41,097 nt of DNA from a virus. Position numbers and translations under genes: made by a program. Shown here in pieces: positions 2,773-40,262 of the stretch. Position 1 is the first letter of the stretch. Each line of letters starts with the position of its first letter. A model generated the notes under the pieces. It was not told where the DNA came from. It did no database searches and was given only the letters and a program-made list of their open reading frames with translations. The stretch is from the IMG/VR virus record IMGVR_UViG_3300002120_000004; one strand, written 5' to 3'.

Positions 2773-3112
2773 CGGATTCTCCTTTCATCTTTGGACCGTA
2801 TTTCTTGACCACCTTCGAAAGTACCTCAGTAAGTTCCTTCTTTTGTTTCTCATTGAGCGGCGCGATTTCTTCATCTTCCGGCATATCTTCCATAGTGCAC
2901 TGAAGACAGATTGGAGCCGCCCTTTCTTCCTTCATAAGGTCTATGCCCGATGGACTCACATAGACCTTATGACCACAGCTGATACAAAACTTTATACTGG
3001 ATCCATCAGCAATAAGATCCTGGGTTATATCGTTGACCCTCACGCACATGAGCCTCACTTCTTTCCCTTCTTGAGGCTCCTGAGTGTCCTTGTATCCTAT
3101 CTTTAACTTCAA
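2753..3112 (-). CDS. zinc-ribbon protein (119 aa)
   Basis: TTG start with a GGGAGG SD 4 nt upstream. Carries CISCGHK...CLQC cysteine pairs. Confidence 0.75.
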   Translation of the reverse strand: MKLKIGYKDTQEPQEGKEVRLMCVRVNDITQDLIADGSSIKFCISCGHKVYVSPSGIDLMKEERAAPICLQCTMEDMPEDEEIAPLNEKQKKELTEVLSKVVKKYGPKMKGESDGGKKV

Positions 3113-3205: not shown

Positions 3206-3229
3206 CCTTACAGGCCAGGCTGGAAGCCC
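3206..3229. repeat. 24-bp intergenic repeat copy 1 (ccttacaggccaggctggaagccc)
   Basis: Identical 24-mer at 6221..6244 in the same orientation. Both copies sit in the only two sizeable non-coding regions of the early side. Confidence 0.9.
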
Positions 3230-4228: not shown

Positions 4229-4435
4229 CTACCCCTCCTGGTTATAGGCTCCCGCTCCTGCTCCTGCTCCAGCCCCAGCTCCAGCTCCGGCTCCCGCTCC
4301 TGCTCCAGCTCCCGCTCCTGCTCCTGCTCCTGCTCCTGCTCCAGCTCCTGCTCCAGCTCCTGCTCCAGCTCCTGCTCCTGCTCCTGCTCCCGCTCCCGCT
4401 CCCGCTCCCGCTCCCGCTCCCGCTCCCGCTCCCAT
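4229..4435 (-). CDS. micro-ORF encoding M-(Gly-Ala)31-YNQEG (68 aa)
   Basis: ATG-initiated and tightly packed between two solid genes. All repeat variation falls on wobble positions of this frame. The SD is weak (CGGCGGCGATCC precedes the ATG) and GGA usage is atypical for the island, so translation is not certain. Confidence 0.45.
   Translation of the reverse strand: MGAGAGAGAGAGAGAGAGAGAGAGAGAGAGAGAGAGAGAGAGAGAGAGAGAGAGAGAGAGAGAYNQEG
4247..4432. repeat. tandem hexamer array, 31 x NGCTCC (minus strand GGAGCN)
   Basis: Counted by hand: N = T x12, C x10, A x7, G x2, with one unit agcccc. Seven identical cgctcc units lie at the 4391..4432 end. Confidence 0.95.
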
Positions 4436-4791: not shown

Positions 4792-4968
4792 CTATTTCTC
4801 CTTGTTCGGTTGGGGTTGCAGGTTCAGCCTGTCGCGATAGGCACGAAGAATAGCATCATACTTTTTCCAGTCAGACCGATCTGATTCTTTCCAGCGATCG
4901 CCGTCACTTCCTACATTGTCAAGCATCCAGTCCAGCGCCTCTAGCACCTCTGCGGTCGTGGGGGTCAT
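4792..4968 (-). CDS. small acidic protein (58 aa), below the ORF-track length cut-off
   Basis: Translated by hand: ATG 4968 with AAAGGAGG 6 nt upstream, MTPTTAEVLEALDWMLDNVGSDGDRWKESDRSDWKKYDAILRAYRDRLNLQPQPNKEK, stop TAG at 4794..4792. Confidence 0.65.
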   Translation of the reverse strand: MTPTTAEVLEALDWMLDNVGSDGDRWKESDRSDWKKYDAILRAYRDRLNLQPQPNKEK

Positions 4969-5048
4969 TCGATTCCTCCTTTGTAGGCCCTTTAGCTCTC
5001 GAATCTACCACCATCAGCCAACCTTTGTACAGTCCATCCCTAGTCTCG

Positions 5049-5095
5049 CCACGCCGCCGCCGCAGGGCGAGCGCAGCGAGTGAACGGCGGCGTGG
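5049..5095 (-). repeat. GC-rich stem-loop family member 3 (no U-tract)
   Basis: CCACGCCGCCG-25 nt loop (ccgcagggcgagcgcagcgagtgaa)-CGGCGGCGTGG, an 11-bp perfect stem. It directly follows terminator T2. Confidence 0.75.
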
Positions 5096-5101
5096 GCGTA
5101 G

Positions 5102-5141
5102 CATAAAATTAGGGATGAGGACGATGTTCCATCCTCATCCC
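5102..5141 (-). terminator. canonical intrinsic terminator T2
   Basis: Minus sense: GGGATGAGGA-tggaacatcg-TCCTCATCCC followed by TAATTTTAT. It starts 8 nt after the stop of 5150..5464. Confidence 0.7.
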
Positions 5142-5149
5142 ATGGGTCG

Positions 5150-5464
5150 CTACGCAGCGGGCTTGGCCGCGAGAGAAGCGGACCGACGCTCGCGCTCGGT
5201 CTCGATCACCTTGTCGAGCGCGGCACGGTCCTTCTCGGTCATGTCGTGACGAGTGCCGATCACGGCCTCATACGCACGACCGATGTGACCCTTCCCAGCT
5301 GCGAAGCCGTTGTAGGCTTCCAGGGTCCTGAGTTCCTTCTCGTGACGCCAGAGCGTTCCGTTCACGGCGCGCTGGCCAGCCACGAGGGCCTCTCCGACCC
5401 TGAGCAGACTCCGACTCAGGATCCGAATCTGAATCTCCATCTCCTTCACCGCTTCGTCTTCCAT
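5150..5464 (-). CDS. hypothetical protein (104 aa), first gene of the minus-strand block
   Basis: Track ORF 5150..5506 trimmed to ATG 5464, which has an AAGGAG SD 6 nt upstream. Helical-looking sequence: MEDEAVKEMEIQIRILSRSLLRVGEAL... Confidence 0.7.
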   Translation of the reverse strand: MEDEAVKEMEIQIRILSRSLLRVGEALVAGQRAVNGTLWRHEKELRTLEAYNGFAAGKGHIGRAYEAVIGTRHDMTEKDRAALDKVIETERERRSASLAAKPAA

Positions 5465-5560
5465 GAGACTCTCCTTGTTTCGCCTTCGGACCATCCAAAG
5501 GCACAAACCGGGGCGAAGCAGGCCAGCCGCAGGCGATAGCGGCGAGTTTCACCCCGCCGC

Positions 5561-5588
5561 AAGATAAAAGATTCCGCGCAGCGGAATC
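5561..5588 (-). terminator. canonical intrinsic terminator T1
   Basis: Minus sense: GATTCCGC-tgc-GCGGAATC followed by TTTTATCTT. Confidence 0.7.
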
Positions 5589-5723
5589 GACCTTAGAGAC
5601 TGAGCCCGTGGCTTTGGATGAGCCGAAGGCGAAACTACTGGGAGAGTCTGAGTGGAAGCGAAGCTTGGTGAAGGAGTGGAGATCCATTAGATTCGGGTAC
5701 TAAGTCTGGAGTCTGCTCAAGGT

Positions 5724-5736
5724 CGGAGAGTCTCCG
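5724..5736. promoter_or_regulatory. perfect 13-bp palindrome CGGAGAGTCTCCG, candidate operator
   Basis: Read directly. Related half-sites GGAGAGTCT occur at 5641..5649 and, on the minus strand, over the SD of the first early gene (5475..5466). Confidence 0.35.
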
Positions 5737-6058
5737 TGGATAGTCCAGAAGTGTCCTCTGTGAACGGGACACCTCTGGACGTACACGAGAAGGGGAAGCT
5801 CAGGATATGGGAGCCTACAAAGGAGATGGCTGGGTACCGTCTCATCTCTAATACTGGCGTATCAAGTGATAGCCAGCATTAGAGATAGACGAATGTTCTT
5901 GCCAAAGTACACTTTTCAGAGCCTTATATATAGAGGGACCTGAGAAGCCGAAGCAGCTCTGCTGCTGAGGCTTGTAGGGAGCGGGAGCCACAGAGGATCC
6001 AACTACGTGTAGTTGGACTCCTCTGTGCCTCTACCACCCTGAAAAGTGTACTTCTCGT

Positions 6059-6088
6059 AGACTAGTGGGGTAAGCTCCCTAATGTCAA
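6059..6088 (-). promoter_or_regulatory. candidate sigma70-type promoter (TTGACA - 18 nt - TAGTCT)
   Basis: Minus sense: ctcaTTGACAttagggagcttaccccacTAGTCTacgag. The predicted start is within a few nt of 6053, the first base of the 15-bp helix. The -10 element is weak. Confidence 0.4.
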
Positions 6089-6220
6089 TGAGATACCCCC
6101 CTAGGGTGTATACCGTAGCAGCGCTGGTATAAGTGGACTGCCCTCTCATAGTACAAAACAAGGATCAAAAAGGGACCCAACGCCCCAAGTCATTCACAGA
6201 CATAGAGTTAACTCACTTCC

Positions 6221-6244
6221 CCTTACAGGCCAGGCTGGAAGCCC
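6221..6244. repeat. 24-bp intergenic repeat copy 2 (ccttacaggccaggctggaagccc)
   Basis: Identical to 3206..3229. It ends 44 nt upstream of ATG 6289. Confidence 0.9.
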
Positions 6245-6288
6245 GAGACTAAGGGTCGTAGAGGGGTAAGACCCAAGAAGGAGATTAA

Positions 6289-6615
6289 ATGGAACCTCTT
6301 AAGCTACTTAAGTCTAAGAGGTCTAGTAGGCGTAGGGGATACACTAGACGGGGTAAGCACAAGTTAGCAGTTGAGTTAGAGCTGTCAGACAAGGATCTGG
6401 ACCTTCTAAAGAACTACGCCAGGGCTGGGTTCCCGAGAGCCAGAAACGGCAAGTTCAGGCTTGGGGCGGCAGCTAGCAGGATCTTGGAACTTGGGATCCT
6501 ATACCTATTTGAGAGGTACACGTATGGCCAAGATGAGCAGGAAAGTCAGGAAATCTCAGAGCGGGAAGCCTTGGACGAGGGGCTCCGAATCATCGACGCC
6601 CCAAGAGAGGCCTGA
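6289..6615 (+). CDS. putative ribbon-helix-helix DNA-binding protein (108 aa)
   Basis: AAGAAGGAG SD 6 nt upstream of the ATG. A basic N-terminus is followed by HKLAVELELSDKDLDLLKNYARAG, a strand-helix pattern typical of RHH/Arc-CopG proteins (recalled, not searched). Confidence 0.6.
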   Translation: MEPLKLLKSKRSSRRRGYTRRGKHKLAVELELSDKDLDLLKNYARAGFPRARNGKFRLGAAASRILELGILYLFERYTYGQDEQESQEISEREALDEGLRIIDAPREA

Positions 6616-6925
6616 CCCTAAGAGGCTTCCCGCTCCTCCTGAGGACATGCTCAGGATCCTCGTAAGCCCTACTGGTAGGGCTCTGGCGCAGATATTCAAG
6701 CTCGGTCAGGCCGTTACCAGGCACCTGGATGGGAAAGCCCTTCTTGGGCTGAATCGGGTAGAATCCAAGAATCTCATGGCTAGTGTGATCTTGTTATCAG
6801 TAGAAGCCAGGGATGCCTATATCCTGGAACGACTTGCAATGGAGAAATCTCATGAAGCGGACGGTGAAATCCCCAAAGAGCCAGAAGAGGCTCCAGCCGA
6901 GCCCAAAATCATCCTCGCCCACTAG
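6524..6925 (+). CDS. hypothetical protein (133 aa); start uncertain
   Basis: Track ORF 6461..6925 trimmed to ATG 6524 (GAGAGG upstream). This start overlaps the previous gene by 92 nt; ATG 6647 is an alternative. Confidence 0.5.
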   Translation: MAKMSRKVRKSQSGKPWTRGSESSTPQERPDPKRLPAPPEDMLRILVSPTGRALAQIFKLGQAVTRHLDGKALLGLNRVESKNLMASVILLSVEARDAYILERLAMEKSHEADGEIPKEPEEAPAEPKIILAH

Positions 6926-8086: not shown

Positions 8087-9599
8087 AGCAAGGACTACGG
8101 AGCTCCTCCGCCTATATGAGAAGCGGGCAAAAGAACGACCGTGGAGGTACTACACGTCGGTTCCGTCCATTCTCCCGTTCCACAGGTCCCTTTCGCACAT
8201 CAGGGTCCTAGCAGGCCCAAACCGTGGAGGGAAGACCACAGCCGGAGCCATCGAGTGCATCTCCTTCGCCACCGGATGGAACGAGTTCAGACAGCAGAAG
8301 TATAAGACCCCAGACCTCCATTGGGCTGTGGCCCTCGACAATAATCGAATGGGCTATGTCCAGCGGAAGAAACTCTTCGAGCTACTTCCACCGCAGGGTT
8401 ACAGGTACTGGAGGCAGGACCAGATCATTGAGATGAAGAAGCAGTGGGGTGGATCTGAGATCCACTTGATGTCCGCTGAGGCTGGCCCCCAGAAGTTCCA
8501 GGGAGCTAATCCCAGAAGCGTCTGGATAGACGAGGAACCGAAGGTACACGGAGAAGAGATCTGGGATGAGATCTATGCCCGTATCTCTCCAGGCCAGCCT
8601 CTGGATATCTACCTCACCTTCACCCCGCTTCTTGGATACAGCTGGAGCTTCAGGAAACTCTGGGATCCCGAGTCCATCGAGAGGGCTCCAGGAGTTGAGA
8701 CGTTCATCTTCAGTTTGTATGACTGCGCGATATCGCGTGGCGGGCACTACACGGACGAGGAGATCGAGCACTTCGTCGCTGGATACAGCGAGTACGAACG
8801 CAGGTCCCGTGTGTACGGAGCGTACTCTCTGGTTGGCGGCTCTCCGTACTTCGATCCCGATAGGGTCCATGCCTGCCGCGCACTTTGTCCAAAGGGGGTT
8901 TCAGCCACCTTCTCGGTGGATCCGACAAACCAGCCGCTCCTAAAGAAGTTTGGGGACGGAACCACCATTCTCTTCAAGGAGCGTGTGGCGAACCACCGCT
9001 ACCTGGTGGGTGTGGATATCTCTGGTGGTGGCAGGAAGGACCGGTCGGTTGCTTACGTGATCGACCGGGATGATGACGCCGCCTGTGTCGCAAGGTTCAA
9101 GTCGAACATGATCGACCCAGAGGCGTTTGCCCGCGAAGTGGTGTTTCCAATGGCGCGGTACTATTTCAATGCAACCGTGGTCCCAGAGATCAACGGGGAG
9201 TATGGCGGTGCCTTCCTCACTTCGCTGCGAATGATCTACCCTTCAAGGATCTACAACCAGACTCAGTGGGATCGTGTAAAGAATCGGTTCACTGGGCAGC
9301 TTGGTTGGAGAACCCATGAAGGGACCCGTGGAATGATTATCTCGGCCCTTGAGAGGGCGATACGGGAGAAGAAGTGGAAGCCTACGTCTTCCCTGCTTGA
9401 TGAGATGTGCATGATGGTCATCAAGGATAACGACAAAGTGGAGCATGTCGAGGGTGGGTTCGATGACGAGGCGTTCGCCGCTGGACTAGCGATGGCTGTC
9501 TACTACCTAAATCCAAAGGCCAAACGGATCCCAGAAGATCAAAGGGTCGAGATCTGGGAGAGGGCTGCGAGCGATGAATTGGAGGCTGTGATCTGTTGA
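8076..9599 (+). CDS. terL: terminase large subunit; start codon non-canonical or unresolved
   Basis: Walker A AGPNRGGKTTAG (8211..8246), Walker B VWIDEEP, nuclease-domain LVGVDISGGG. The frame is open from 8058 but has no ATG/GTG/TTG before GTG 8328. CTG 8076 lies 9 nt after AAGGGGGTGG. Confidence 0.85.
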   Translation: MSPEARTTELLRLYEKRAKERPWRYYTSVPSILPFHRSLSHIRVLAGPNRGGKTTAGAIECISFATGWNEFRQQKYKTPDLHWAVALDNNRMGYVQRKKLFELLPPQGYRYWRQDQIIEMKKQWGGSEIHLMSAEAGPQKFQGANPRSVWIDEEPKVHGEEIWDEIYARISPGQPLDIYLTFTPLLGYSWSFRKLWDPESIERAPGVETFIFSLYDCAISRGGHYTDEEIEHFVAGYSEYERRSRVYGAYSLVGGSPYFDPDRVHACRALCPKGVSATFSVDPTNQPLLKKFGDGTTILFKERVANHRYLVGVDISGGGRKDRSVAYVIDRDDDAACVARFKSNMIDPEAFAREVVFPMARYYFNATVVPEINGEYGGAFLTSLRMIYPSRIYNQTQWDRVKNRFTGQLGWRTHEGTRGMIISALERAIREKKWKPTSSLLDEMCMMVIKDNDKVEHVEGGFDDEAFAAGLAMAVYYLNPKAKRIPEDQRVEIWERAASDELEAVIC

Positions 9600-11650
9600 T
9601 TCCAGACAAGCCGGATCTACCAGAAGCTGAGCTTCCGGAACAGAAAGAGGAAGAAATTGATAGCCGGGAACTGGATGGCTGGAAGATAGGTCGCTCCCTT
9701 CTGCGATCCGCTAAATCCATTTCATCCAAGTTCCAGACTAAGTTCTATGACAACTGGAAGTTCCTCCTCGGGGAGAACCACTGGAAAGCACCTGCGAATA
9801 CAGCCGCCAGGAAAGCAACTGAGTGGCAGAACCGTGGAGTCAGGAACTGGACCTTTGCCGCAGTGGACCAGAAAGCATCCTCGATCCTCTCTGCCGAGCC
9901 ACGTATCACGGCGTATGCCTGGGGAGCCAACTCCAGCTTCATAGACCAGTACCGTGCTGCACAGGCCGTGGAGCATGAGCTGGACCGTATGAGGCGGAGG
10001 GAGTATGAAGAGGATGCCTTCTGGGATGGAGCCGCCTGTTCGATTGGTGTAACCAGAGTTGTTATTTGCCGGGATGAGCGCTCTGGAATGAAGTTCCTGA
10101 AACTTGAGTCCGTGGATCCAACAAGGTTCCATGTTGATCCCGAAGCCGACCGGCTCCATGAGTGCCGGTACATCAACTATGAGCCTGATATGGATATGGC
10201 GGACATCAGGAAGTACTTCCCGCTCACCTGGCACCGTCTTCTAAAAGAACCCGATAGGCAGTCACTTGACGTAACAACGGGGTCATTGTCCCTGGATGCT
10301 GATGTTCGTCAGTACCGCTCCAAGTCGGACTGGGAGATGGTCAGTTCTGGCGGTAGAGAGATCACGGGCGGCAAGGGACCCATGATCAGTGGTGTGCATC
10401 GGGTGTGTTACACGCTGATCAAAGACGATGAGGTCATCGAGGAAGTGGAGCGGAGGGTGCTCCAGGGAGAGCAGGAGGGCTACCAGTGCGCCCAATGCAG
10501 CTCCATCTTCTACCCCCCGGACCCAATGACCGATGTTGAGGAGATGGCGATGCCGGAGTCGGTCATGTGTCCCGACTGCGGCTCGGAGGCCGTGGCTGGC
10601 GTCACGATCCCTCCTGTGGAGGAACAGGGGGATACGGTACGGCGCTACAAGTACCCCTATGGAAGACTCATCGTCCACACGGAGACCGCACTTCTTTATG
10701 ACGGTCCCAACCAAGATGAGATTGAGGAGCTCTTCTTCCCATTCGCTGTCTACTCCTACTATAGGATTCCTCATAGGTTCCTAGGGTATGGGGATGTGGA
10801 TCTCCTTAGATCCGCCCAGAGTTCTGCGGACAGGACCATGGCCCAGCTACTGGATTACTTGAGGCTGTGTGTGAATGGTGTATTCGAGTATCCAGATGAG
10901 GCATACCAGTACGATGCCACCGGGAATGCACCTGGCCAGAAGGTTGCTCTGCCACCCAATCTGATTGGGATGGCTCGCACAGTCCCCCCAGCTCCAATCA
11001 ACCTGGGGGCCGTACAGCTAGCTGAGGATATAGCAAAGAGGGACTTCGGTGAGATGTCAGGTATCACTCCCATCTCAACTGGTACAGCGCCCTCGGCTCC
11101 AAGCTCGGGGCGTGAAGTTGAGATGCGGCAGCGTGCTGCTGCTACCAGGCTTGGGGGACACCTGTTCCGATTCAATCAGTACAGGACGGACATAGCAAAC
11201 ATCGTCTGGCAGCTGATGTGGCAGCACTATAGGGAGCCCAGAATGGTCCCCATGAAGGATAGCCAGGGCCAGAAGGAAATGGTGGAGCTTGAGGTAAGGA
11301 GCCTGCCTAGGAACCTAAAGATGGTGGTCACGGCAGATCCGGATACCATCGAGAGAAACGACCTGACTGGACAGAATCTACAGGGCTTGATCACTCAGGG
11401 AGTCCTCCCAATGTGGCCCGATATGCTCCTACCTGCGATTGGAATCCCGGCTGGGATTGCAGCTCAGATTCAGGAGCGTATGAGGCTGGCCCAGGTGGAG
11501 CAGCAAATGGCCACTGAGCAACAAATAGCTGGTCAAGAGGGGATGCCACCTGAGGGGATGCCACCTGAGGGGATTCCACCTGAGGAGGCTATGATGGAGG
11601 GGCCACCGATGGAAGGGATGCCTGAGGAGGAGATGCCAGTTGTTTCCTAA
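9596..11650 (+). CDS. portal protein (684 aa)
   Basis: Size and position directly after terL (TTGA start/stop overlap). Contains a CxxC...CxxC insertion and a C-terminal EGMPP repeat. Confidence 0.75.
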   Translation: MIPDKPDLPEAELPEQKEEEIDSRELDGWKIGRSLLRSAKSISSKFQTKFYDNWKFLLGENHWKAPANTAARKATEWQNRGVRNWTFAAVDQKASSILSAEPRITAYAWGANSSFIDQYRAAQAVEHELDRMRRREYEEDAFWDGAACSIGVTRVVICRDERSGMKFLKLESVDPTRFHVDPEADRLHECRYINYEPDMDMADIRKYFPLTWHRLLKEPDRQSLDVTTGSLSLDADVRQYRSKSDWEMVSSGGREITGGKGPMISGVHRVCYTLIKDDEVIEEVERRVLQGEQEGYQCAQCSSIFYPPDPMTDVEEMAMPESVMCPDCGSEAVAGVTIPPVEEQGDTVRRYKYPYGRLIVHTETALLYDGPNQDEIEELFFPFAVYSYYRIPHRFLGYGDVDLLRSAQSSADRTMAQLLDYLRLCVNGVFEYPDEAYQYDATGNAPGQKVALPPNLIGMARTVPPAPINLGAVQLAEDIAKRDFGEMSGITPISTGTAPSAPSSGREVEMRQRAAATRLGGHLFRFNQYRTDIANIVWQLMWQHYREPRMVPMKDSQGQKEMVELEVRSLPRNLKMVVTADPDTIERNDLTGQNLQGLITQGVLPMWPDMLLPAIGIPAGIAAQIQERMRLAQVEQQMATEQQIAGQEGMPPEGMPPEGIPPEEAMMEGPPMEGMPEEEMPVVS
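11537..11581 (+). repeat. 3 x 15-bp tandem repeat (EGMPP) in the portal C-terminus
   Basis: gaggggatgccacct x2 followed by gaggggattccacct. Confidence 0.9.
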
Positions 11651-13991: not shown

Positions 13992-14924
13992 TTGGCTACA
14001 ACTCCGTTACAGCTTAGTACCGTCAACCACTCAATAGTCATCCCGACAGTATGGGAGCCGATGTTCGAATTCACGGCAAACCAGCCTCGTGGGTTGGCTG
14101 AGCGAGTGTGGAACATTTCTGATAGGGTCCAGGGAAGTGGGAATACCTATAACCTGACGATTCTACCGGCATATGCTCCAACTGCACCGACGGGAACTGC
14201 GCCTGACCAGAGCTTTGCTTCTGGTAACGTGATGACATGGGTTGGCGATGATAGCACGAAACAGGCCAACTATGTCACAGTCGGAACACCTACCCAGAAG
14301 CAGATCAAGTTCCGTCTGAACAACATTGCCATCAAGCTGGATCCGGATATCCAGACATTTAGCGTTTCGGATCTTGCTGAGGCGTATACCCCGGTCCTTG
14401 CTGAGTCGCTCTATCAAGCGATTGAGCTTGAGCTATTCTACTTGATTGGGAATACGACTCTGTGGCCGTCGAACGCGACGTTCGAGATCGGGACGGATGC
14501 TACGCCGTTCTCTGAGGCTAACTTCCTGTCTGGTCTTGGGACACTTCTGACCAATGCTAAGGACAAGTTGGCACCTGGTGATAGTGAGATTTTCGCAGTT
14601 TATGACTTGAACCAGATCGACAACGTTCTGAACGTTGGGAACATTGTCAACGCTTCCGTCCGTGGCGAGAAGAACGGCGCTGCGATGACCGGTCGGATCA
14701 AGACCGTCTACGGTGTTGACTTCATGTTCACCGGGAACGTTCCGACTCAGGGAGCTGGAAACTCCAACTTCCTATTTGCACGTAAGGCGATGGCATACGG
14801 GCGTAAGTCTAATGCCAAGATCGAGACTGATCGTCAGGATTTGATCACCAAGATCATCGCCCACTGCATCTGGGGAGCAAATCAGGTTCACCAGGTTCTG
14901 GGATTCCGTCACCTGACGAACTAG
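13992..14924 (+). CDS. major capsid protein (310 aa)
   Basis: Size and position after the scaffold-like gene. Low use of A-ending codons. Followed by the strong hairpin 14946..14976. TTG start in the context TAATTGGCTACA. Confidence 0.7.
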   Translation: MATTPLQLSTVNHSIVIPTVWEPMFEFTANQPRGLAERVWNISDRVQGSGNTYNLTILPAYAPTAPTGTAPDQSFASGNVMTWVGDDSTKQANYVTVGTPTQKQIKFRLNNIAIKLDPDIQTFSVSDLAEAYTPVLAESLYQAIELELFYLIGNTTLWPSNATFEIGTDATPFSEANFLSGLGTLLTNAKDKLAPGDSEIFAVYDLNQIDNVLNVGNIVNASVRGEKNGAAMTGRIKTVYGVDFMFTGNVPTQGAGNSNFLFARKAMAYGRKSNAKIETDRQDLITKIIAHCIWGANQVHQVLGFRHLTN

Positions 14925-14945
14925 TAGTTTAACTTAGTTATGCCA

Positions 14946-14976
14946 GTGGTGGGGGGCTTAGAATACCCCCCACCAC
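14946..14976 (+). terminator. strong stem-loop after the capsid gene (possible terminator/attenuator, no U-tract)
   Basis: GTGGTGGGGGG-cttagaata-CCCCCCACCAC, an 11-bp perfect stem. Confidence 0.5.
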
Positions 14977-14986
14977 AGGAGGGGGA

Positions 14987-17147: not shown

Positions 17148-17179
17148 GAGACGGTCCGAGACAAAACTCGGACCGTCTC
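17148..17179 (+). terminator. 13-bp perfect stem-loop (possible terminator, no U-tract)
   Basis: GAGACGGTCCGAG-acaaaa-CTCGGACCGTCTC. Confidence 0.5.
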
Positions 17180-22925: not shown

Positions 22926-23618
22926 ATGGGTGCCACCGCAGATCTGGTTCTGGCGCTGAGGCATGACATCGGTGAGGATAGTGCTGCCAATTCCCACCTT
23001 GGTACGACTTCTGTTATTCCGGTTGAGTGGCTGAATCAGGCCCAGAGGAGACTGTGTGCCTCGGGGAATCTTTTGGTAAGTGGGTGGTATGGTAACTCTG
23101 ATCCTGCTGTAGAGTTCTATATTGTACCCTCAGATTACTACAGGATTGTTGCTCTTCACGTGATTGATGGTACCACTCGATACAAGATCAACCCAAATCC
23201 TGGAGGGATCAGACACAGAAGCAAAACAACCGTGGGGCAGAATATCCCCACCTACTACGGGATGTGGGGTGCCAATGACTCCAGTGGAAACAACAAGGAC
23301 GTTATCTTCTTTGAGCCAAACTTCAACGTAGCTGGGAAAGTCATAGAGGTCTATGCAGCTCAGATGCCCAAGACAATGGTGGATGATACCCAGGGTCCTG
23401 AGCTTAATACCTACTGGCAGGATGGGATGCTTACGTACTGCCGTATGAAGTTCTACCTGAGAATGGCGAATGGCGACTCAAGCTACAGAACCATGGCTCA
23501 GGATGCAAGATCTGAGTGGGAGTCGTTCGTACAAGAGGCCAAGAGGTTCCGTTGGCCGACGGGTATGGATGTACCCTCGCTTCCCGTTGATCTCATGGAA
23601 TATACGGTGGAGAGGTAG
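22926..23618 (+). CDS. putative tail adaptor / tubular protein A-like (230 aa)
   Basis: Size and position directly before the nozzle-like gene. Inference from gene order only. Confidence 0.5.
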   Translation: MGATADLVLALRHDIGEDSAANSHLGTTSVIPVEWLNQAQRRLCASGNLLVSGWYGNSDPAVEFYIVPSDYYRIVALHVIDGTTRYKINPNPGGIRHRSKTTVGQNIPTYYGMWGANDSSGNNKDVIFFEPNFNVAGKVIEVYAAQMPKTMVDDTQGPELNTYWQDGMLTYCRMKFYLRMANGDSSYRTMAQDARSEWESFVQEAKRFRWPTGMDVPSLPVDLMEYTVER

Positions 23619-31983: not shown

Positions 31984-32226
31984 TTGGAGTCTACCTTGGT
32001 CCACTTTGATCCGACAATAAGCCTTGGAAGCGTCTTGGTTGTCGTTACCATGACTTTTGGAGCTGTGTGGTGGGGTGGCGTTATCTCATCTACAATAAAG
32101 AGGATAGAGGAAAAGATGGACGATCTTGTTACGAGAAGGGAATTCGACATAAGCAGGGATGGGCAGCAGAAACAGATCAATGGGATCAATACAAGGATGG
32201 ACCTTGATCCAGATAGGTATAAGTGA
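31984..32226 (+). CDS. single-pass membrane protein (80 aa), holin- or spanin-like
   Basis: TM segment LGSVLVVVTMTFGAVWWGGVI followed by a charged helical tail. Sits immediately upstream of the lysin. TTG start with a weak SD. Confidence 0.55.
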   Translation: MESTLVHFDPTISLGSVLVVVTMTFGAVWWGGVISSTIKRIEEKMDDLVTRREFDISRDGQQKQINGINTRMDLDPDRYK

Positions 32227-32750
32227 AATCACAAGATAGGTACGATAGCCTCCTTCAGTATTACTCTATGACTGTTGAAATGCCATGGAAGCTCCTGAAG
32301 GCTCAGATGCTTCAGGAGAGTTCTGCGAACCCAGATGCCAAGTCCAGAGTTGGTGCCATGGGCCTCATGCAGTTTATGCCTAGAACAGCTAAGGATGAGT
32401 TCATTGGTAGCCAAATGGATCCACTAGACCCAGAGGAGTCGATCAAGGCTGCCTCCAGATATATGGCAAAGCTCGTAACAGCAGTTAGGCTAGCTGTCTA
32501 CAGCGGCCCAATCATAGAGCCAGACCACTGGAAGATGGCTCTCGCCAGCTACAACGGGGGGATTGGGTATGTACAGAAGGCCATCCACATGTGTGCCTAC
32601 GAGGGAATCCCATACACCTGGGAGAATGTCTTGGCTAAGCTCCCGAAAGTACTCGTGAAAGGAAAGAGGATGGACGTAAAACAGGTAGAGGACTATGTGT
32701 CCAGGATTTGGAAGAAGTACGAGGAGGATTCCCATGAAACGGATACGTAA
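32223..32750 (+). CDS. lytic transglycosylase (SLT-domain) endolysin (175 aa)
   Basis: LLKAQMLQESSANPDAKSRVGAMGLMQFMP...ASYNGGIGY carries the SLT E-S / GLMQ / YNxG motifs. Confidence 0.85.
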   Translation: MKSQDRYDSLLQYYSMTVEMPWKLLKAQMLQESSANPDAKSRVGAMGLMQFMPRTAKDEFIGSQMDPLDPEESIKAASRYMAKLVTAVRLAVYSGPIIEPDHWKMALASYNGGIGYVQKAIHMCAYEGIPYTWENVLAKLPKVLVKGKRMDVKQVEDYVSRIWKKYEEDSHETDT

Positions 32751-36356: not shown

Positions 36357-36357
36357 G

Positions 36358-36579
36358 TCAACTACCCCTCCCTTCTGATTCCTCGTCGGGCTCGATTTCC
36401 CACTCAGATAACTCTAATAGAGAGCATGGCTCAGTCTCAAAACGAACCACGCTCTCTTTCCCACCACTAACAGCAACTCTCCTACAAGAGCAGAAGGTTA
36501 CCTTACTGGGGCTCGTTGATTCCACAGTATCCCCACAGTGGACGCACTGAGCTGCGTTCTTCTTGATCACCCTGGCCAC
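36358..36579 (-). CDS. zinc-ribbon protein (73 aa)
   Basis: GTG start 5 nt after AGGAGG. Motif CVHCGD...FCSCRRVAVSGG. Confidence 0.7.
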   Translation of the reverse strand: MARVIKKNAAQCVHCGDTVESTSPSKVTFCSCRRVAVSGGKESVVRFETEPCSLLELSEWEIEPDEESEGRGS

Positions 36580-36598
36580 AGTTACCTCCTACAAAATT

Positions 36599-36697
36599 GG
36601 GATGCTGGCACCAGATAGCTCAAGTCTTGGATAGGCTACCAAGATCATGTCGCTGCCGGAGTTGTAATCTCTGCCTTAGAGATCTAGCCAGCACCCC
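36599..36697 (-). other. structured intercistronic RNA element (~99 nt)
   Basis: An 11-bp long-range helix (minus sense GGGGTGCTGGC / GCCAGCATCCC, with one G.U that is A.C on plus) encloses hairpins ATCTCT-aaggc-AGAGAT and CTTGG-tagcctat-CCAAG, followed by AATTTTGT. Confidence 0.45.
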
Positions 36698-36706
36698 AAA
36701 CCTTAA

Positions 36707-40035: not shown

Positions 40036-40262
40036 ACCTCATCTCCCGATAGGGGTCCTGATAGTTCATCCATGGTGAGAAGTCTAGGACCACGCTTCCC
40101 CTCTGTCAAGGGAGATTTTACCTCCTCAAAAGCACCTTCCACTGTATCCTTGAGAGCGTCCCACTCTGTTCTTGTCATTGAGATCTCTCCTGGGCCAACC
40201 TCAAGAAAGACAACAGGTTCGTCCATGTGATCCCACCACCGCACCTTCATCTGTATGGCCAT
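40032..40262 (-). CDS. hypothetical protein (76 aa)
   Basis: Track ORF 40032..40412 trimmed to ATG 40262 behind AAGAAGGAGGAAG. Its stop overlaps the erf start (ATGA). Confidence 0.65.
   Translation of the reverse strand: MAIQMKVRWWDHMDEPVVFLEVGPGEISMTRTEWDALKDTVEGAFEEVKSPLTEGKRGPRLLTMDELSGPLSGDEV

What the first reader, a model, noticed from the sequence alone, without database searches (positions are those of the whole stretch)
5561..6088. Promoter-to-terminator unit of ~490 nt built from long helices in the divergent control region (candidate novel structured RNA)
No convincing ORF lies between the first minus-strand gene (ATG 5464) and the first plus-strand gene (ATG 6289). Instead there is a chain of helices. 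H1 is 5743..5780 (14-bp stem) and H2 is 5845..5885 (14-bp stem). A closed domain at 5905..6053 has a perfect 15-bp helix (aagtacacttttcag / ctgaaaagtgtactt) enclosing hairpin 5945..5973 (5+6 bp with a symmetric 2x2 internal loop), the 16-bp hairpin 5989..6027, and an AT-rich TTATATATAG joiner. In H1 and H2 the single non-Watson-Crick position is A.C on the plus strand but G.U on the minus strand, which points to selection on a minus-sense RNA. A minus-strand sigma70-type promoter (TTGACA 6088..6083, 18-nt spacer, TAGTCT 6064..6059) would start transcription within a few nt of 6053, the first base of the 15-bp helix. A canonical intrinsic terminator (5588..5561) ends the unit ~100 nt before the first early gene. 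Candidate roles: a put/nut-like antitermination RNA, a processed sRNA, an anti-defence RNA decoy, or, at the DNA level, the replication origin. Caveat: the 2x2 loop of 5945..5973 is tandem G.A in plus sense and U.C in minus sense, so the strand of the central domain is not settled.
Basis: partly seen in the sequence, partly recalled or inferred. Interest (0 to 1): 0.75.

Follow-up and report, generated by a model that had tools for sequence, protein, structure and literature searches.

The report
Hairpin-rich phage leader, antisense tail
The 824-base gene-poor control region of an uncultured 41-kb phage is packed with hairpins far beyond chance, and it probably makes a ~490-base leftward RNA whose unfolded tail is the mirror image of the start of the next gene and would silence it; no relatives exist to compare, so this function is a prediction.

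Summary
Folding is far beyond chance: z = -11.2 (minus sense) and -8.8 (plus sense) for 5740-6090. The minus-strand intrinsic terminator 5588->5561 is canonical.

Positions 5608-5735, the 3' third of the proposed RNA, are an imperfect inverted copy (105 of 118 aligned positions complementary) of 5385-5504. That segment holds the Shine-Dalgarno sequence, the ATG at 5464 and the first 26 codons of the first early gene. Alone, this tail is unstructured. Paired with the gene's 5' end it gains about -106 kcal/mol.

Best model: a minus-sense leader or sRNA with a hairpin scaffold, a ~130-nt tail complementary to the gene's translation initiation region (TIR; "anti-TIR") and a terminator. It would block translation of the first early gene in cis after read-through, or in trans when terminated.

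Rfam has no match. The flanking proteins are ORFans, the closest phages share only 48% TerL identity, and seven near-identical contigs carry no SNP here. Covariation is therefore untestable, and DNA-level or small-ORF readings remain open. I rate this a new variant of a known kind, of moderate interest.

The parts
6059..6088 (-). Candidate early promoter P(-): TTGACA (6088-6083), 18-nt spacer, TAGTCT (6064-6059). The predicted start is about 6052-6053.
   Evidence: It is the only lenient sigma70-type hit on the minus strand in 5400-6320. It is one of 4 genomic matches to TTGASA-N16-19-TAGNNT against 0.55 expected. The sister sites 40109-40081 and 36440-36411 lie 46 and ~55 nt upstream of minus-strand genes. 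The strict scan did not call it.
5905..6053 (-). Closed three-way domain. A perfect 15-bp helix (5905-5919/6039-6053) encloses hairpin 5945-5973, hairpin 5976-6040 (17-bp core 5989-6027) and the AT-rich joiner 5924-5933.
   Evidence: MFE is -77 kcal/mol on either strand.
5836..5893 (-). H2 extended hairpin: about 25 pairs, with core 5844-5858/5872-5886.
   Evidence: MFE is -35.0 (minus) and -30.2 (plus) kcal/mol.
5743..5780 (-). H1 hairpin: 14-nt arms and a 10-nt loop. The single mismatch is A.C on plus, which is G.U on minus.
5608..5735 (-). Anti-TIR tail, the right arm of the giant inverted repeat. In minus sense it is complementary to the SD, ATG and first 26 codons of the 104-aa gene. It is unstructured on its own.
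   Evidence: 105 of 118 aligned positions complementary; z = -1.6 alone; pairing gain -106.5 against -17 +/- 4.5 kcal/mol for shuffles.
5561..5588 (-). Intrinsic terminator: GATTCCGC-TGC-GCGGAATC followed by TTTTATCTT. It lies in the loop of the giant inverted repeat.
5505..5560 (-). Rest of the giant-hairpin loop, including hairpin 5539-5545/5554-5560. It could hold an inner promoter for the 104-aa gene, but none was recognisable.
5385..5504 (-). Target arm, the left arm of the giant inverted repeat: 5' UTR, SD (5476-5470), ATG (5464-5462) and codons 1-26 of the first early gene.
5150..5464 (-). First early gene: 104 aa, an ORFan predicted to be helical.
   Evidence: Strong SD. Codon score is 0.318. 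AF2 pLDDT is 78, with a long N-terminal helix. No homolog was found.
5112..5141 (-). Second intrinsic terminator, directly after the 104-aa gene: 13-bp stem, then TAATTTTATG.
6162..6186 (-). Weak terminator-like hairpin upstream of P(-). It could insulate the unit from antisense read-in.
   Evidence: 5-bp stems only.
6125..6133 (+). Candidate extended -10 (TGgTATAAG) of a rightward promoter lying back-to-back with P(-).
   Evidence: Read directly from the sequence. No scan called it, so this is inference only.

Best explanation
The region encodes a minus-sense, non-coding leader or sRNA of about 490 nt. It runs from the early-type promoter at 6088-6059 (start near 6052) to the intrinsic terminator at 5588-5561.

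Its 5' two-thirds (6053-5743) fold into very stable hairpins: a closed three-way domain, H2 and H1. These would give a paired 5' end and a nuclease-resistant scaffold. The next ~130 nt (5735-5608) stay single-stranded. They are the complement of the SD, start codon and first 26 codons of the first early gene (104 aa, ATG at 5464).

When RNA polymerase reads through the terminator, the tail and the gene's initiation region lie on one transcript. They would zip into a ~120-bp duplex that hides the ribosome-binding site and is long enough to be an RNase III substrate. When transcription stops at the terminator, the released RNA can pair with the same site in trans, on any mRNA made from an inner or read-through start. 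Either way the element is a negative, RNA-level gate on the first early gene, and two terminators (5561 and 5112) throttle the rest of the leftward operon.

Shown: the helices, the terminator, the complementarity and its uniqueness among 65 gene starts, and the unstructured state of the tail.
Inferred: the transcription start, the strand, that the RNA accumulates, and the regulatory outcome.
For: - Helices and statistics.
- Terminator.
- Promoter family TTGASA-N16-19-TAGNNT: 4 sites against 0.55 expected, 3 of them on the early strand upstream of minus-strand units.
- No other promoter-like site lies between 6059 and 5464 on the minus strand.
- Strand: 7 of 12 isolated 1x1 mismatches are G.U in minus sense and 0 are G.U in plus sense. 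H1, H2, H5 and the 5539 hairpin are 3-5 kcal/mol more stable in minus sense.
- Anti-TIR: the arms are complementary at 105 of 118 aligned positions.
- The duplex of the RNA with the 40-nt TIR of the 104-aa gene is -57 kcal/mol. The median is -28.7 and the next best is -41.5 over 65 gene starts.
- Cofolding gains -106.5 kcal/mol, against -17 +/- 4.5 for shuffles.
- The tail alone has z = -1.6, so it is accessible.
- The sequence is identical in independent assemblies from several samples, so it is not an assembly artefact.
- Precedents for the logic: IsrK of Gifsy-1 and P4 CI RNA (PMC4825925).
Against: - There is no comparative support at all: no homologous region, no SNPs and no covariation.
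- The -10 element matches TATAAT at 3 of 6 positions, and lenient promoter hits occur about once per kb per strand. The TAGnnT pattern was defined after seeing the data.
- Strand evidence is thin. Over all aligned mismatches the count is 8 against 3, which is not significant. The giant repeat is equally stable on both strands. Hairpin 5945-5973 favours plus sense by 4.5 kcal/mol through tandem G.A pairs. Even late-operon hairpins, which must be plus sense, score slightly better in minus sense.
- The right arm looks like a frame-shifted, decayed inverted copy of the gene's 5' end. It could be a neutral duplication remnant.
- If the gene has no promoter of its own, the model predicts it is almost never translated, which is odd for a retained gene.
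- The distant relatives L008, L009 and L011 have no comparable inverted repeat at their junctions.
- ORF 6149-6003 has gene-like codon usage.
Confidence: 0.4

Rival explanations
1. DNA-level element or evolutionary debris. The palindromes act as double- or single-stranded DNA (replication origin, packaging or recombination site, protein-binding operators). Alternatively they are decaying inverted duplications made by template switching, with no RNA function.
For: - Inverted repeats fold equally well on both strands (z = -26.1 and -25.7).
- The cumulative GC skew has its minimum at 5550-5600, the centre of the giant repeat.
- The right arm is a frame-shifted pseudo-copy of the gene start.
- Several assemblies break inside the region, at window 5537, 5945 and 5971.
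- The 15-bp arms each contain a near-palindrome, AAGTnnACTT. One arm sits at the predicted +1 of P(-). The other lies between a -35-like TTGCCA (5899-5904) and the TATATA run, as operators would (read).
Against: - There is no DnaA box within one mismatch in the region and no iterons or tandem repeats.
- The lowest GC over 60 nt is only 0.38.
- No recombinase, integrase or protelomerase was found in Pfam scans of the ORFs of 100 aa or more and the small flanking ORFs.
- The five hairpins have unrelated sequences, so several different binding proteins would be needed.
- The 7:0 G.U asymmetry and the oriented terminator point to RNA.
- An 824-nt stretch of junk is unusual in a 41-kb phage whose genes are otherwise closely packed.
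Confidence: 0.2
2. Processive antitermination RNA of the put, EAR or canT type. The hairpin domain 6053-5743, made just after the early promoter, binds the elongating RNA polymerase. This lets it read through the terminators at 5561 and 5112 and through the ~6-kb leftward operon.
For: - Position: the domain starts at the predicted +1 and precedes two intrinsic terminators on the same strand.
- No other promoter-like site lies before 5464. The next promoter of the same type downstream on that strand, among those found, is at 40109. The intervening genes would therefore need read-through.
- RNA-only antiterminators of ~70 nt (put; PMC9378689) and 452 nt (Tn916 canT; PMC11658703) occupy this same position.
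- This rival is compatible with the best explanation for the tail.
Against: - There is no sequence or Rfam similarity to any known element.
- The helices are long and nearly perfect, unlike the bulged two-hairpin put fold.
- There is no second copy on the rightward operon.
- The relative L009 has a ~365-nt leader with no terminator to overcome.
- The evidence is purely positional.
Confidence: 0.15
3. An ordinary arrangement of two small convergent protein genes: ORF A (5736-5882, +, 48 aa) and ORF B (6149-6003, -, 48 aa). Their ends coincide with H2 and with the 5989-6027 hairpin. The hairpins are U-less terminators or mRNA stabilisers like those in the late operon.
For: - Both ORFs are called by some pipelines.
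- Codon-usage scores are 0.206 and 0.384, against a mean of 0.235 for true 48-codon chunks. No spurious ORF inside genes reaches 0.2.
- Region-wise simulation gives p of about 0.025 and 0.0007.
- ORF A has GGAGAG 5 nt before its GTG.
- The late operon has perfect 13-14-bp hairpins without a U tract right after genes, at 14943-14979 and 17148-17179.
Against: - ORF B has a pyrimidine-rich upstream region and no SD, whereas 31 of 41 phage genes have one.
- Its AF2 pLDDT is 52.6.
- It contains the P(-) promoter.
- ORF A's score comes from the purine-rich linker between H1 and H2, while its hairpin-encoded parts score about 0.
- Neither ORF matches PHROGs.
- Other pipelines do not call them (L002 and L007).
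- No plus-strand promoter was found for ORF A.
Confidence: 0.1
4. A plus-sense reading. The hairpins form a long structured 5' UTR of the rightward structural operon, transcribed from a promoter left of 5740.
For: - Hairpin 5945-5973 is 4.5 kcal/mol more stable in plus sense through tandem G.A pairs.
- The plus strand of 5600-6000 is purine-rich, like the coding strands.
- There is a -35-like TTGCCA at 5899-5904, followed 19-20 nt later by the TATATA run.
Against: - No plus-strand promoter or terminator was called in 5000-6700.
- The isolated-mismatch asymmetry is 7:0 in favour of minus sense.
- A better rightward promoter candidate (TGgTATAAG, 6125-6133) lies downstream of all the hairpins.
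Confidence: 0.1

Closest known systems
IsrK sRNA/mRNA of the Salmonella Gifsy-1 prophage (PMC4825925)
   Same: One promoter makes two RNAs. A short RNA ends at an intrinsic terminator. A read-through transcript has the leader sequestering the downstream ribosome-binding site, which makes it translationally inactive. The short form can also pair in trans.
   Different: IsrK is small, and in trans it activates translation by opening the inactive fold. Here the terminated RNA is complementary to the TIR itself, so it should repress. The complementarity is ~130 nt rather than short helices. There is no Rfam match at E <= 10.
Same-strand antisense immunity RNAs: P1/P7 c4 RNA and P4 CI RNA (P4 as summarised in PMC4825925; P1 from established literature)
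   Same: The regulator is encoded upstream on the same strand and the same transcription unit as its target. It pairs with downstream sequences, including a ribosome-binding site in P1 (icd). It controls the first genes of an operon.
   Different: Those RNAs are ~70-80 nt, are processed from the leader and use short (6-10 nt) complementary boxes. P4 CI causes transcription termination. This element is ~490 nt, is defined by a terminator and has a 130-nt complement. There is no Rfam match at E <= 10.
Processive antitermination RNAs: HK022 putL/putR (PMC9378689) and Tn916 canT (PMC11658703)
   Same: A structured RNA sits directly after an early promoter of a mobile element and ahead of intrinsic terminators. 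canT is similar in size (452 nt).
   Different: put is ~70 nt with two bulged stem-loops and occurs once on each early operon. No sequence similarity, second copy or functional evidence exists here.
RNase III-controlled phage leaders and retroregulation (lambda N leader, lambda sib/int, T7 early processing sites; established literature)
   Same: A long duplex forms only in a particular read-through transcript and decides the fate of an adjacent gene's mRNA.
   Different: Those sites are ~20-30-bp hairpins with internal loops. Here the duplex is ~120 bp and includes the SD and start codon themselves. RNase III cleavage was not tested.

Membership tests
Any Rfam 15 family (4227 models) | Match to a covariance model at the gathering score | tested here: not met
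   There were 0 hits at gathering score in the whole window. At E <= 10 in 5300-6400 there were only chance-level hairpin matches to miRNA-precursor, leader and lncRNA models, at 15-18 bits against gathering scores of 33-93.
Intrinsic (Rho-independent) terminator | G+C-rich hairpin immediately followed by a U tract on the transcribed strand | tested here: met
   5588->5561, minus strand: 8-bp stem (5 G-C pairs), 3-nt loop, TTTTATCTT. There is no T run after it on the plus strand.
HK022 put RNA | About 70 nt, two stem-loops with essential bulges, forming a V-shaped fold (PMC9378689) | tested here: not met
   The first domain after the predicted start is a 149-nt closed three-way junction with a perfect 15-bp helix and a 17-bp hairpin.
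HK022 put RNA | Two similar copies, one downstream of each early promoter (putL, putR) | tested here: not met
   Self-BLAST of 5380-6290 against the genome finds no second copy of any hairpin.
HK022 put RNA / canT-type antiterminator | Lies between an early promoter and downstream terminators on the same strand | tested here: met
   P(-) lies at 6088-6059, and the terminators at 5588-5561 and 5141-5112. The promoter itself is inferred.
HK022 put RNA / canT-type antiterminator | Causes terminator read-through in cis | not testable with these tools
   This needs reporter or in vitro transcription assays.
Lambda-type nut site | boxA (CGCTCTTTA-like) plus a boxB hairpin, and an N-like protein | tested here: not met
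   No boxA within one mismatch lies in 5465-6288. No N-like family was hit among the phage proteins, although N proteins are hard to detect.
P1 c4 / P4 CI same-strand antisense RNAs | Regulator encoded upstream on the same strand and complementary to the downstream target, including an RBS | tested here: met
   5735-5608 is complementary to 5504-5385 (SD, ATG, 26 codons) on the same strand.
P1 c4 / P4 CI same-strand antisense RNAs | Small (~70-80 nt) processed RNA with short complementary boxes, and sequence or structure homology | tested here: not met
   The unit is ~490 nt with a 130-nt complement. There is no Rfam match at E <= 10.
IsrK-type dual sRNA/mRNA leader | Promoter, then a terminator that yields a short RNA, with a read-through transcript whose TIR is sequestered by the leader | tested here: inconclusive
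   The architecture fits in silico. Transcript isoforms were not observable. There is no Rfam match at E <= 10.
Theta-type replication origin | Iterons and/or DnaA boxes next to an AT-rich unwinding element | tested here: not met
   There is no DnaA box within one mismatch in the region, no tandem or iterated direct repeats, and the minimum GC is 0.38.
Invertible DNA switch (inverton) | Near-identical inverted repeats flanking a promoter or terminator, plus a site-specific recombinase | tested here: not met
   The arms are only 89% complementary and carry 6 indels. No recombinase appears in the Pfam scans. No assembly has the inverted orientation among the 7 examined.
tRNA/tmRNA-like element | ARAGORN-detectable cloverleaf or tmRNA | tested here: not met
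   0 genes found in the window.

The most novel reading that the evidence does not exclude
A new type of phage riboregulator. It would be a ~490-nt promoter-to-terminator RNA in which a large hairpin scaffold carries a 130-nt single-stranded antisense tail directed at the initiation region of the very next gene on the same strand. It would work in two modes from one promoter: cis occlusion and RNase III targeting after read-through, and trans silencing after termination. The scaffold might also double as an RNA-only antiterminator for the two downstream terminators.
Probability: 0.25. Interest if true: 0.65.

Novelty: new variant of a known kind. Interest (0 to 1): 0.5.

Why it matters
If the model holds, this phage times or limits its first early gene with an unusually large same-strand antisense leader rather than a repressor protein. 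That would extend the small set of cis/trans dual-mode RNAs (IsrK, P1 c4, P4 CI) to an uncultured groundwater podovirus lineage and to a much larger scale of complementarity.

It would also give a compact, portable module: promoter, stable scaffold, programmable 130-nt tail and terminator. If the hairpin scaffold proved to be an RNA-only antiterminator, it would add a new family to a very short list (put, EAR, canT, conAn2).

The practical limits are that the host is unknown and no relatives exist, so the claim can only be tested by heterologous or in vitro experiments.

Tried and rejected
1. Comparative analysis failed at every level.
- blastn of 5300-6700 against 50,697 phage records found nothing.
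- The flanking proteins have no relatives in IMG/VR, in the 5.8-billion protein set or in the exhaustive 1.84-billion representative search.
- A metagenome scan with a small alignment found nothing.
- The nearest TerL is 48% identical.
- The four distant relatives with context (L008, L009, L011, L013) have no alignable region and no comparable inverted repeats.

2. Population variation gave nothing. Seven near-identical contigs have no SNP in 5465-6288. Cluster look-ups of the small ORFs gave no variants.

3. The 199-aa and 291-aa 'relatives' of the 104-aa protein were a false lead. The 199-aa protein belongs to a Mu-like phage that shares only a 23-nt exact stretch with this window. The 291-aa entry appears to be a chimera of the two.

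4. Origin reading: DnaA-box, iteron and AT-richness checks were negative.

5. boxA/nut search was negative. ARAGORN found nothing.

6. The 24-nt repeat (6221-6244 = 3206-3229) was tested as a shared structured or nut-like element. It has no significant fold. Its 18-nt core occurs only in two unrelated viral contigs.

7. AF2 of ORF B gave pLDDT 52.6, which is uninformative.

8. I did not build a covariance model. With one sequence and no relative closer than 48% TerL identity, a negative search would say nothing.
Full report
CONTEXT
The window is a complete, circularly assembled phage genome. It has a 79-nt terminal overlap, so the unique length is 41,018 bp.
- The plus-strand block from 6289 to about 33,300 carries the morphogenesis and lysis genes: TerL 8328-9599, P22/SU10-type portal 9596-11650, capsid-like 13992-14924, SU10 adaptor 22926-23618 and an SLT lysozyme 32223-32750.
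- The minus-strand block runs from 5464 through position 1 and on to 33,315. It carries a SLOG/DprA-like protein, an ERF recombinase, an HTH protein and an AAA ATPase.
- Pfam scans of the ORFs of 100 aa or more and the small flanking ORFs found no RNA polymerase, DNA polymerase, integrase, recombinase, reverse transcriptase or protelomerase.
- The finding therefore lies in the single 824-nt divergent junction (5465-6288) between the leftward 'early' genes and the rightward structural genes.

OBSERVATION
- H1: 5743-5756/5767-5780.
- H2: 5844-5858/5872-5886, extendable to about 25 pairs.
- The perfect 15-bp helix: 5905-5919/6039-6053.
- The 5+6-bp hairpin 5945-5973 with a tandem G.A loop.
- The hairpin 5989-6027: 17 bp with one bulge.

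Folding statistics:
- 5740-6090 folds with z = -11.2 (minus sense) and -8.8 (plus sense) against dinucleotide shuffles.
- In a sliding-window scan of the genome, 5000-6120 is the most structured stretch on both strands.
- The terminator at 5588->5561 is canonical and oriented for the minus strand.
- A second terminator (5141->5112) follows the first early gene directly.

The structure does not stop at H1. Positions 5608-5735 are an imperfect inverted copy of 5385-5504. Of 118 aligned positions, 105 are complementary, and there are six small indels.
- The left arm is the 5' UTR, the Shine-Dalgarno sequence (5476-5470), the ATG (5464) and the first 26 codons of the first early gene.
- The terminator lies in the ~100-nt loop between the arms.
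- The 361-nt hairpin has an MFE of -231 kcal/mol and z = -17.6.
- The right arm carries frameshifts and a stop, so it is not a second coding copy.

STRAND AND TRANSCRIPTION SIGNALS
Several lines point to minus sense.
- The only canonical terminator in the junction is on the minus strand.
- Among 1x1 mismatches flanked by Watson-Crick pairs, seven are A.C on plus (G.U on minus), none is G.T on plus and five are transversion types. Under equal expectation, 7:0 has a two-sided binomial p of about 0.016.
- H1, H2, the 5989-6027 hairpin and the 5539 hairpin are 3-5 kcal/mol more stable in minus sense.

Counter-evidence on strand:
- Counting every aligned mismatch gives 8 against 3.
- The giant repeat is strand-neutral.
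- Hairpin 5945-5973 prefers plus sense.
- Two late-operon hairpins that must be plus sense also score slightly better in minus sense.

Lenient hits occur about once per kb per strand. It is nevertheless the only lenient minus-strand hit in 5400-6320, and it has two sisters on the same strand:
- 40109-40081: TTGACA, 17 nt, TAGACT, lying 46 nt before the ERF gene.
- 36440-36411: TTGAGA, 18 nt, TAGAGT, lying about 55 nt before a 111-aa gene.

The pattern TTGASA-N16-19-TAGNNT occurs 4 times against 0.55 expected. I defined that pattern after seeing the data, so this is moderate support only. In the distant relative L009 a strong leftward promoter (11 of 12 matches, with TG) lies about 365 nt before its first leftward gene. 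A long early leader may therefore be a lineage trait, although L009 has no terminator, no dense hairpins (z = -3.4) and no anti-TIR.

ANATOMY OF THE PREDICTED RNA
Folded alone, the 493-nt RNA (6053->5561) has these parts:
- The 15-bp helix closes its very 5' end.
- H2 and H1 follow.
- A ~130-nt segment is not significantly structured (z = -1.6).
- The terminator hairpin ends the RNA.

That unstructured segment is the anti-TIR. Its duplex with the 40-nt initiation region of the 104-aa gene is -57 kcal/mol. Over 65 gene starts the median is -28.7 and the next best is -41.5. Cofolding the tail with the mRNA 5' end gains -106.5 kcal/mol, against -17 +/- 4.5 for shuffled tails.

The target gene looks real. 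It has a strong SD, a codon score of 0.318 and AF2 pLDDT of 78 with a long N-terminal helix. It has no homolog anywhere.

MECHANISM PROPOSED (INFERENCE)
Transcription from P(-) makes the hairpin scaffold and then the single-stranded anti-TIR, and two outcomes follow.
- At the terminator, most polymerases release a stable ~490-nt RNA that can pair in trans with the TIR of the 104-aa gene.
- Polymerases that read through make a transcript in which the TIR is captured in cis in a ~120-bp duplex. That duplex is inaccessible to ribosomes and long enough for RNase III.

Both routes keep the first early gene off. The logic is closest to IsrK of Gifsy-1 and to the same-strand antisense RNAs c4 (P1) and CI (P4) (PMC4825925). 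The scale is much larger, there is no sequence relationship and there is no Rfam match at E <= 10.

The role of the 5' hairpin domain is not determined. Stabilisation is the minimal reading. Its position between an early promoter and two terminators also fits RNA-only processive antiterminators: put, ~70 nt (PMC9378689), and canT, 452 nt (PMC11658703). Nothing beyond position supports that reading, and the put shape and two-copy criteria are not met.

RIVALS
1. DNA-level function or decaying inverted duplications. Folding is strand-symmetric, the right arm looks like a pseudo-copy, and several assemblies break at 5537, 5945 and 5971. However, origin hallmarks are absent, no recombinase was found in the scans, the hairpins share no motif, and the terminator and G.U bias are oriented.
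2. Two small convergent genes with hairpins at their ends. ORF B (6149-6003) has strikingly gene-like codon usage (0.384; region-wise p of about 0.0007) and ORF A (5736-5882) has an SD. However, ORF B has no SD, folds poorly (pLDDT 52.6) and contains P(-). ORF A's signal comes from a purine-rich linker. Neither ORF has any family match.
3. A plus-sense 5' UTR. It is supported only by the tandem G.A hairpin.

COMPARATIVE EVIDENCE IS UNAVAILABLE
No database held a homologous region. The closest phages share 40-48% TerL identity. Independent assemblies of this phage from several samples are identical across the region. That rules out an assembly artefact but leaves covariation untestable.

VERDICT
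A minus-sense promoter-to-terminator RNA is the best reading, at a confidence of about 0.4.
- It is best filed as a new variant of a known kind (leader-derived cis/trans riboregulator), not as a member of any described family.
- Interest is moderate (0.5). The structure is striking and the hypothesis is testable, but there is no conservation or expression evidence.

Noticed in passing
window 6221-6244 and 3206-3229 (plus-strand orientation): A 24-nt exact direct repeat, CCTTACAGGCCAGGCTGGAAGCCC, with weaker similarity over about 60 nt. One copy lies 45 nt before the first rightward gene. The other lies in the ~245-nt gap before the minus-strand gene that starts at 3112. It has no significant RNA fold, and its 18-nt core is absent from related phages. 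It may be a regulator-binding site or a promoter element.
   Followed up: partly
window 4248-4432: A hexamer tandem repeat (GCTCCT x ~31) in the early operon that could encode a (Gly-Ala)n ORF on the minus strand (4435-4229). Its copy number varies between assemblies: L001 lacks one unit. It coincides with contig breaks.
   Followed up: partly
window 5436-5458; loci L016-L023: A 23-nt exact identity between codons 3-10 of the 104-aa gene and the 3' end of a 199-aa gene of a Mu-like transposable phage from groundwater metagenomes. The Mu-like phage carries MuA, MuB, Gam, GemA and Mor neighbours. A 291-aa database protein (P0023) appears to be a chimera of the two, from either assembly or recombination.
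   Followed up: partly
window 14943-14979 and 17148-17179: Perfect 13-14-bp hairpins without a U tract lie directly after late genes (the capsid-like gene and a 159-aa gene) and just before the next SD. This phage seems to use U-less hairpins as intergenic punctuation.
   Followed up: no
window 5537, 5945, 5971 (starts of contigs L003/L004, L005, L006): Independent assemblies end inside the region: near the centre of the giant inverted repeat, and at both edges of hairpin 5945-5973. The cause is unknown. It could be hairpin-induced coverage or graph breaks, or strain branch points.
   Followed up: partly
window 5813-5825 versus 4976-4988: A 13-nt exact inverted match. The minus-sense RNA would also carry a complement of the SD region of the second early gene (58 aa, ATG at 4968). 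About 0.1 such matches are expected by chance, so this is weak.
   Followed up: partly
window 40081-40109 and 36411-36440 (minus strand): Two more promoter-like sites with the unusual -10 TAGnnT lie just upstream of the ERF gene and of a 111-aa gene. They suggest a phage-specific early promoter flavour.
   Followed up: partly
window 36357-36706: A 350-nt intergenic gap in the early block with strong minus-sense folding: the 36401-36560 window ranks among the most structured in the genome. It contains one of the TAGnnT promoter-like sites. It may be a second structured leader.
   Followed up: no
L009 4660-4700: The distant relative has a 689-nt divergent junction with two tandem copies of CTATTTTGAAACACTTC (plus a third, degenerate copy) near its promoters. 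This is a protein-operator-style control region rather than a hairpin-rich one.
   Followed up: no
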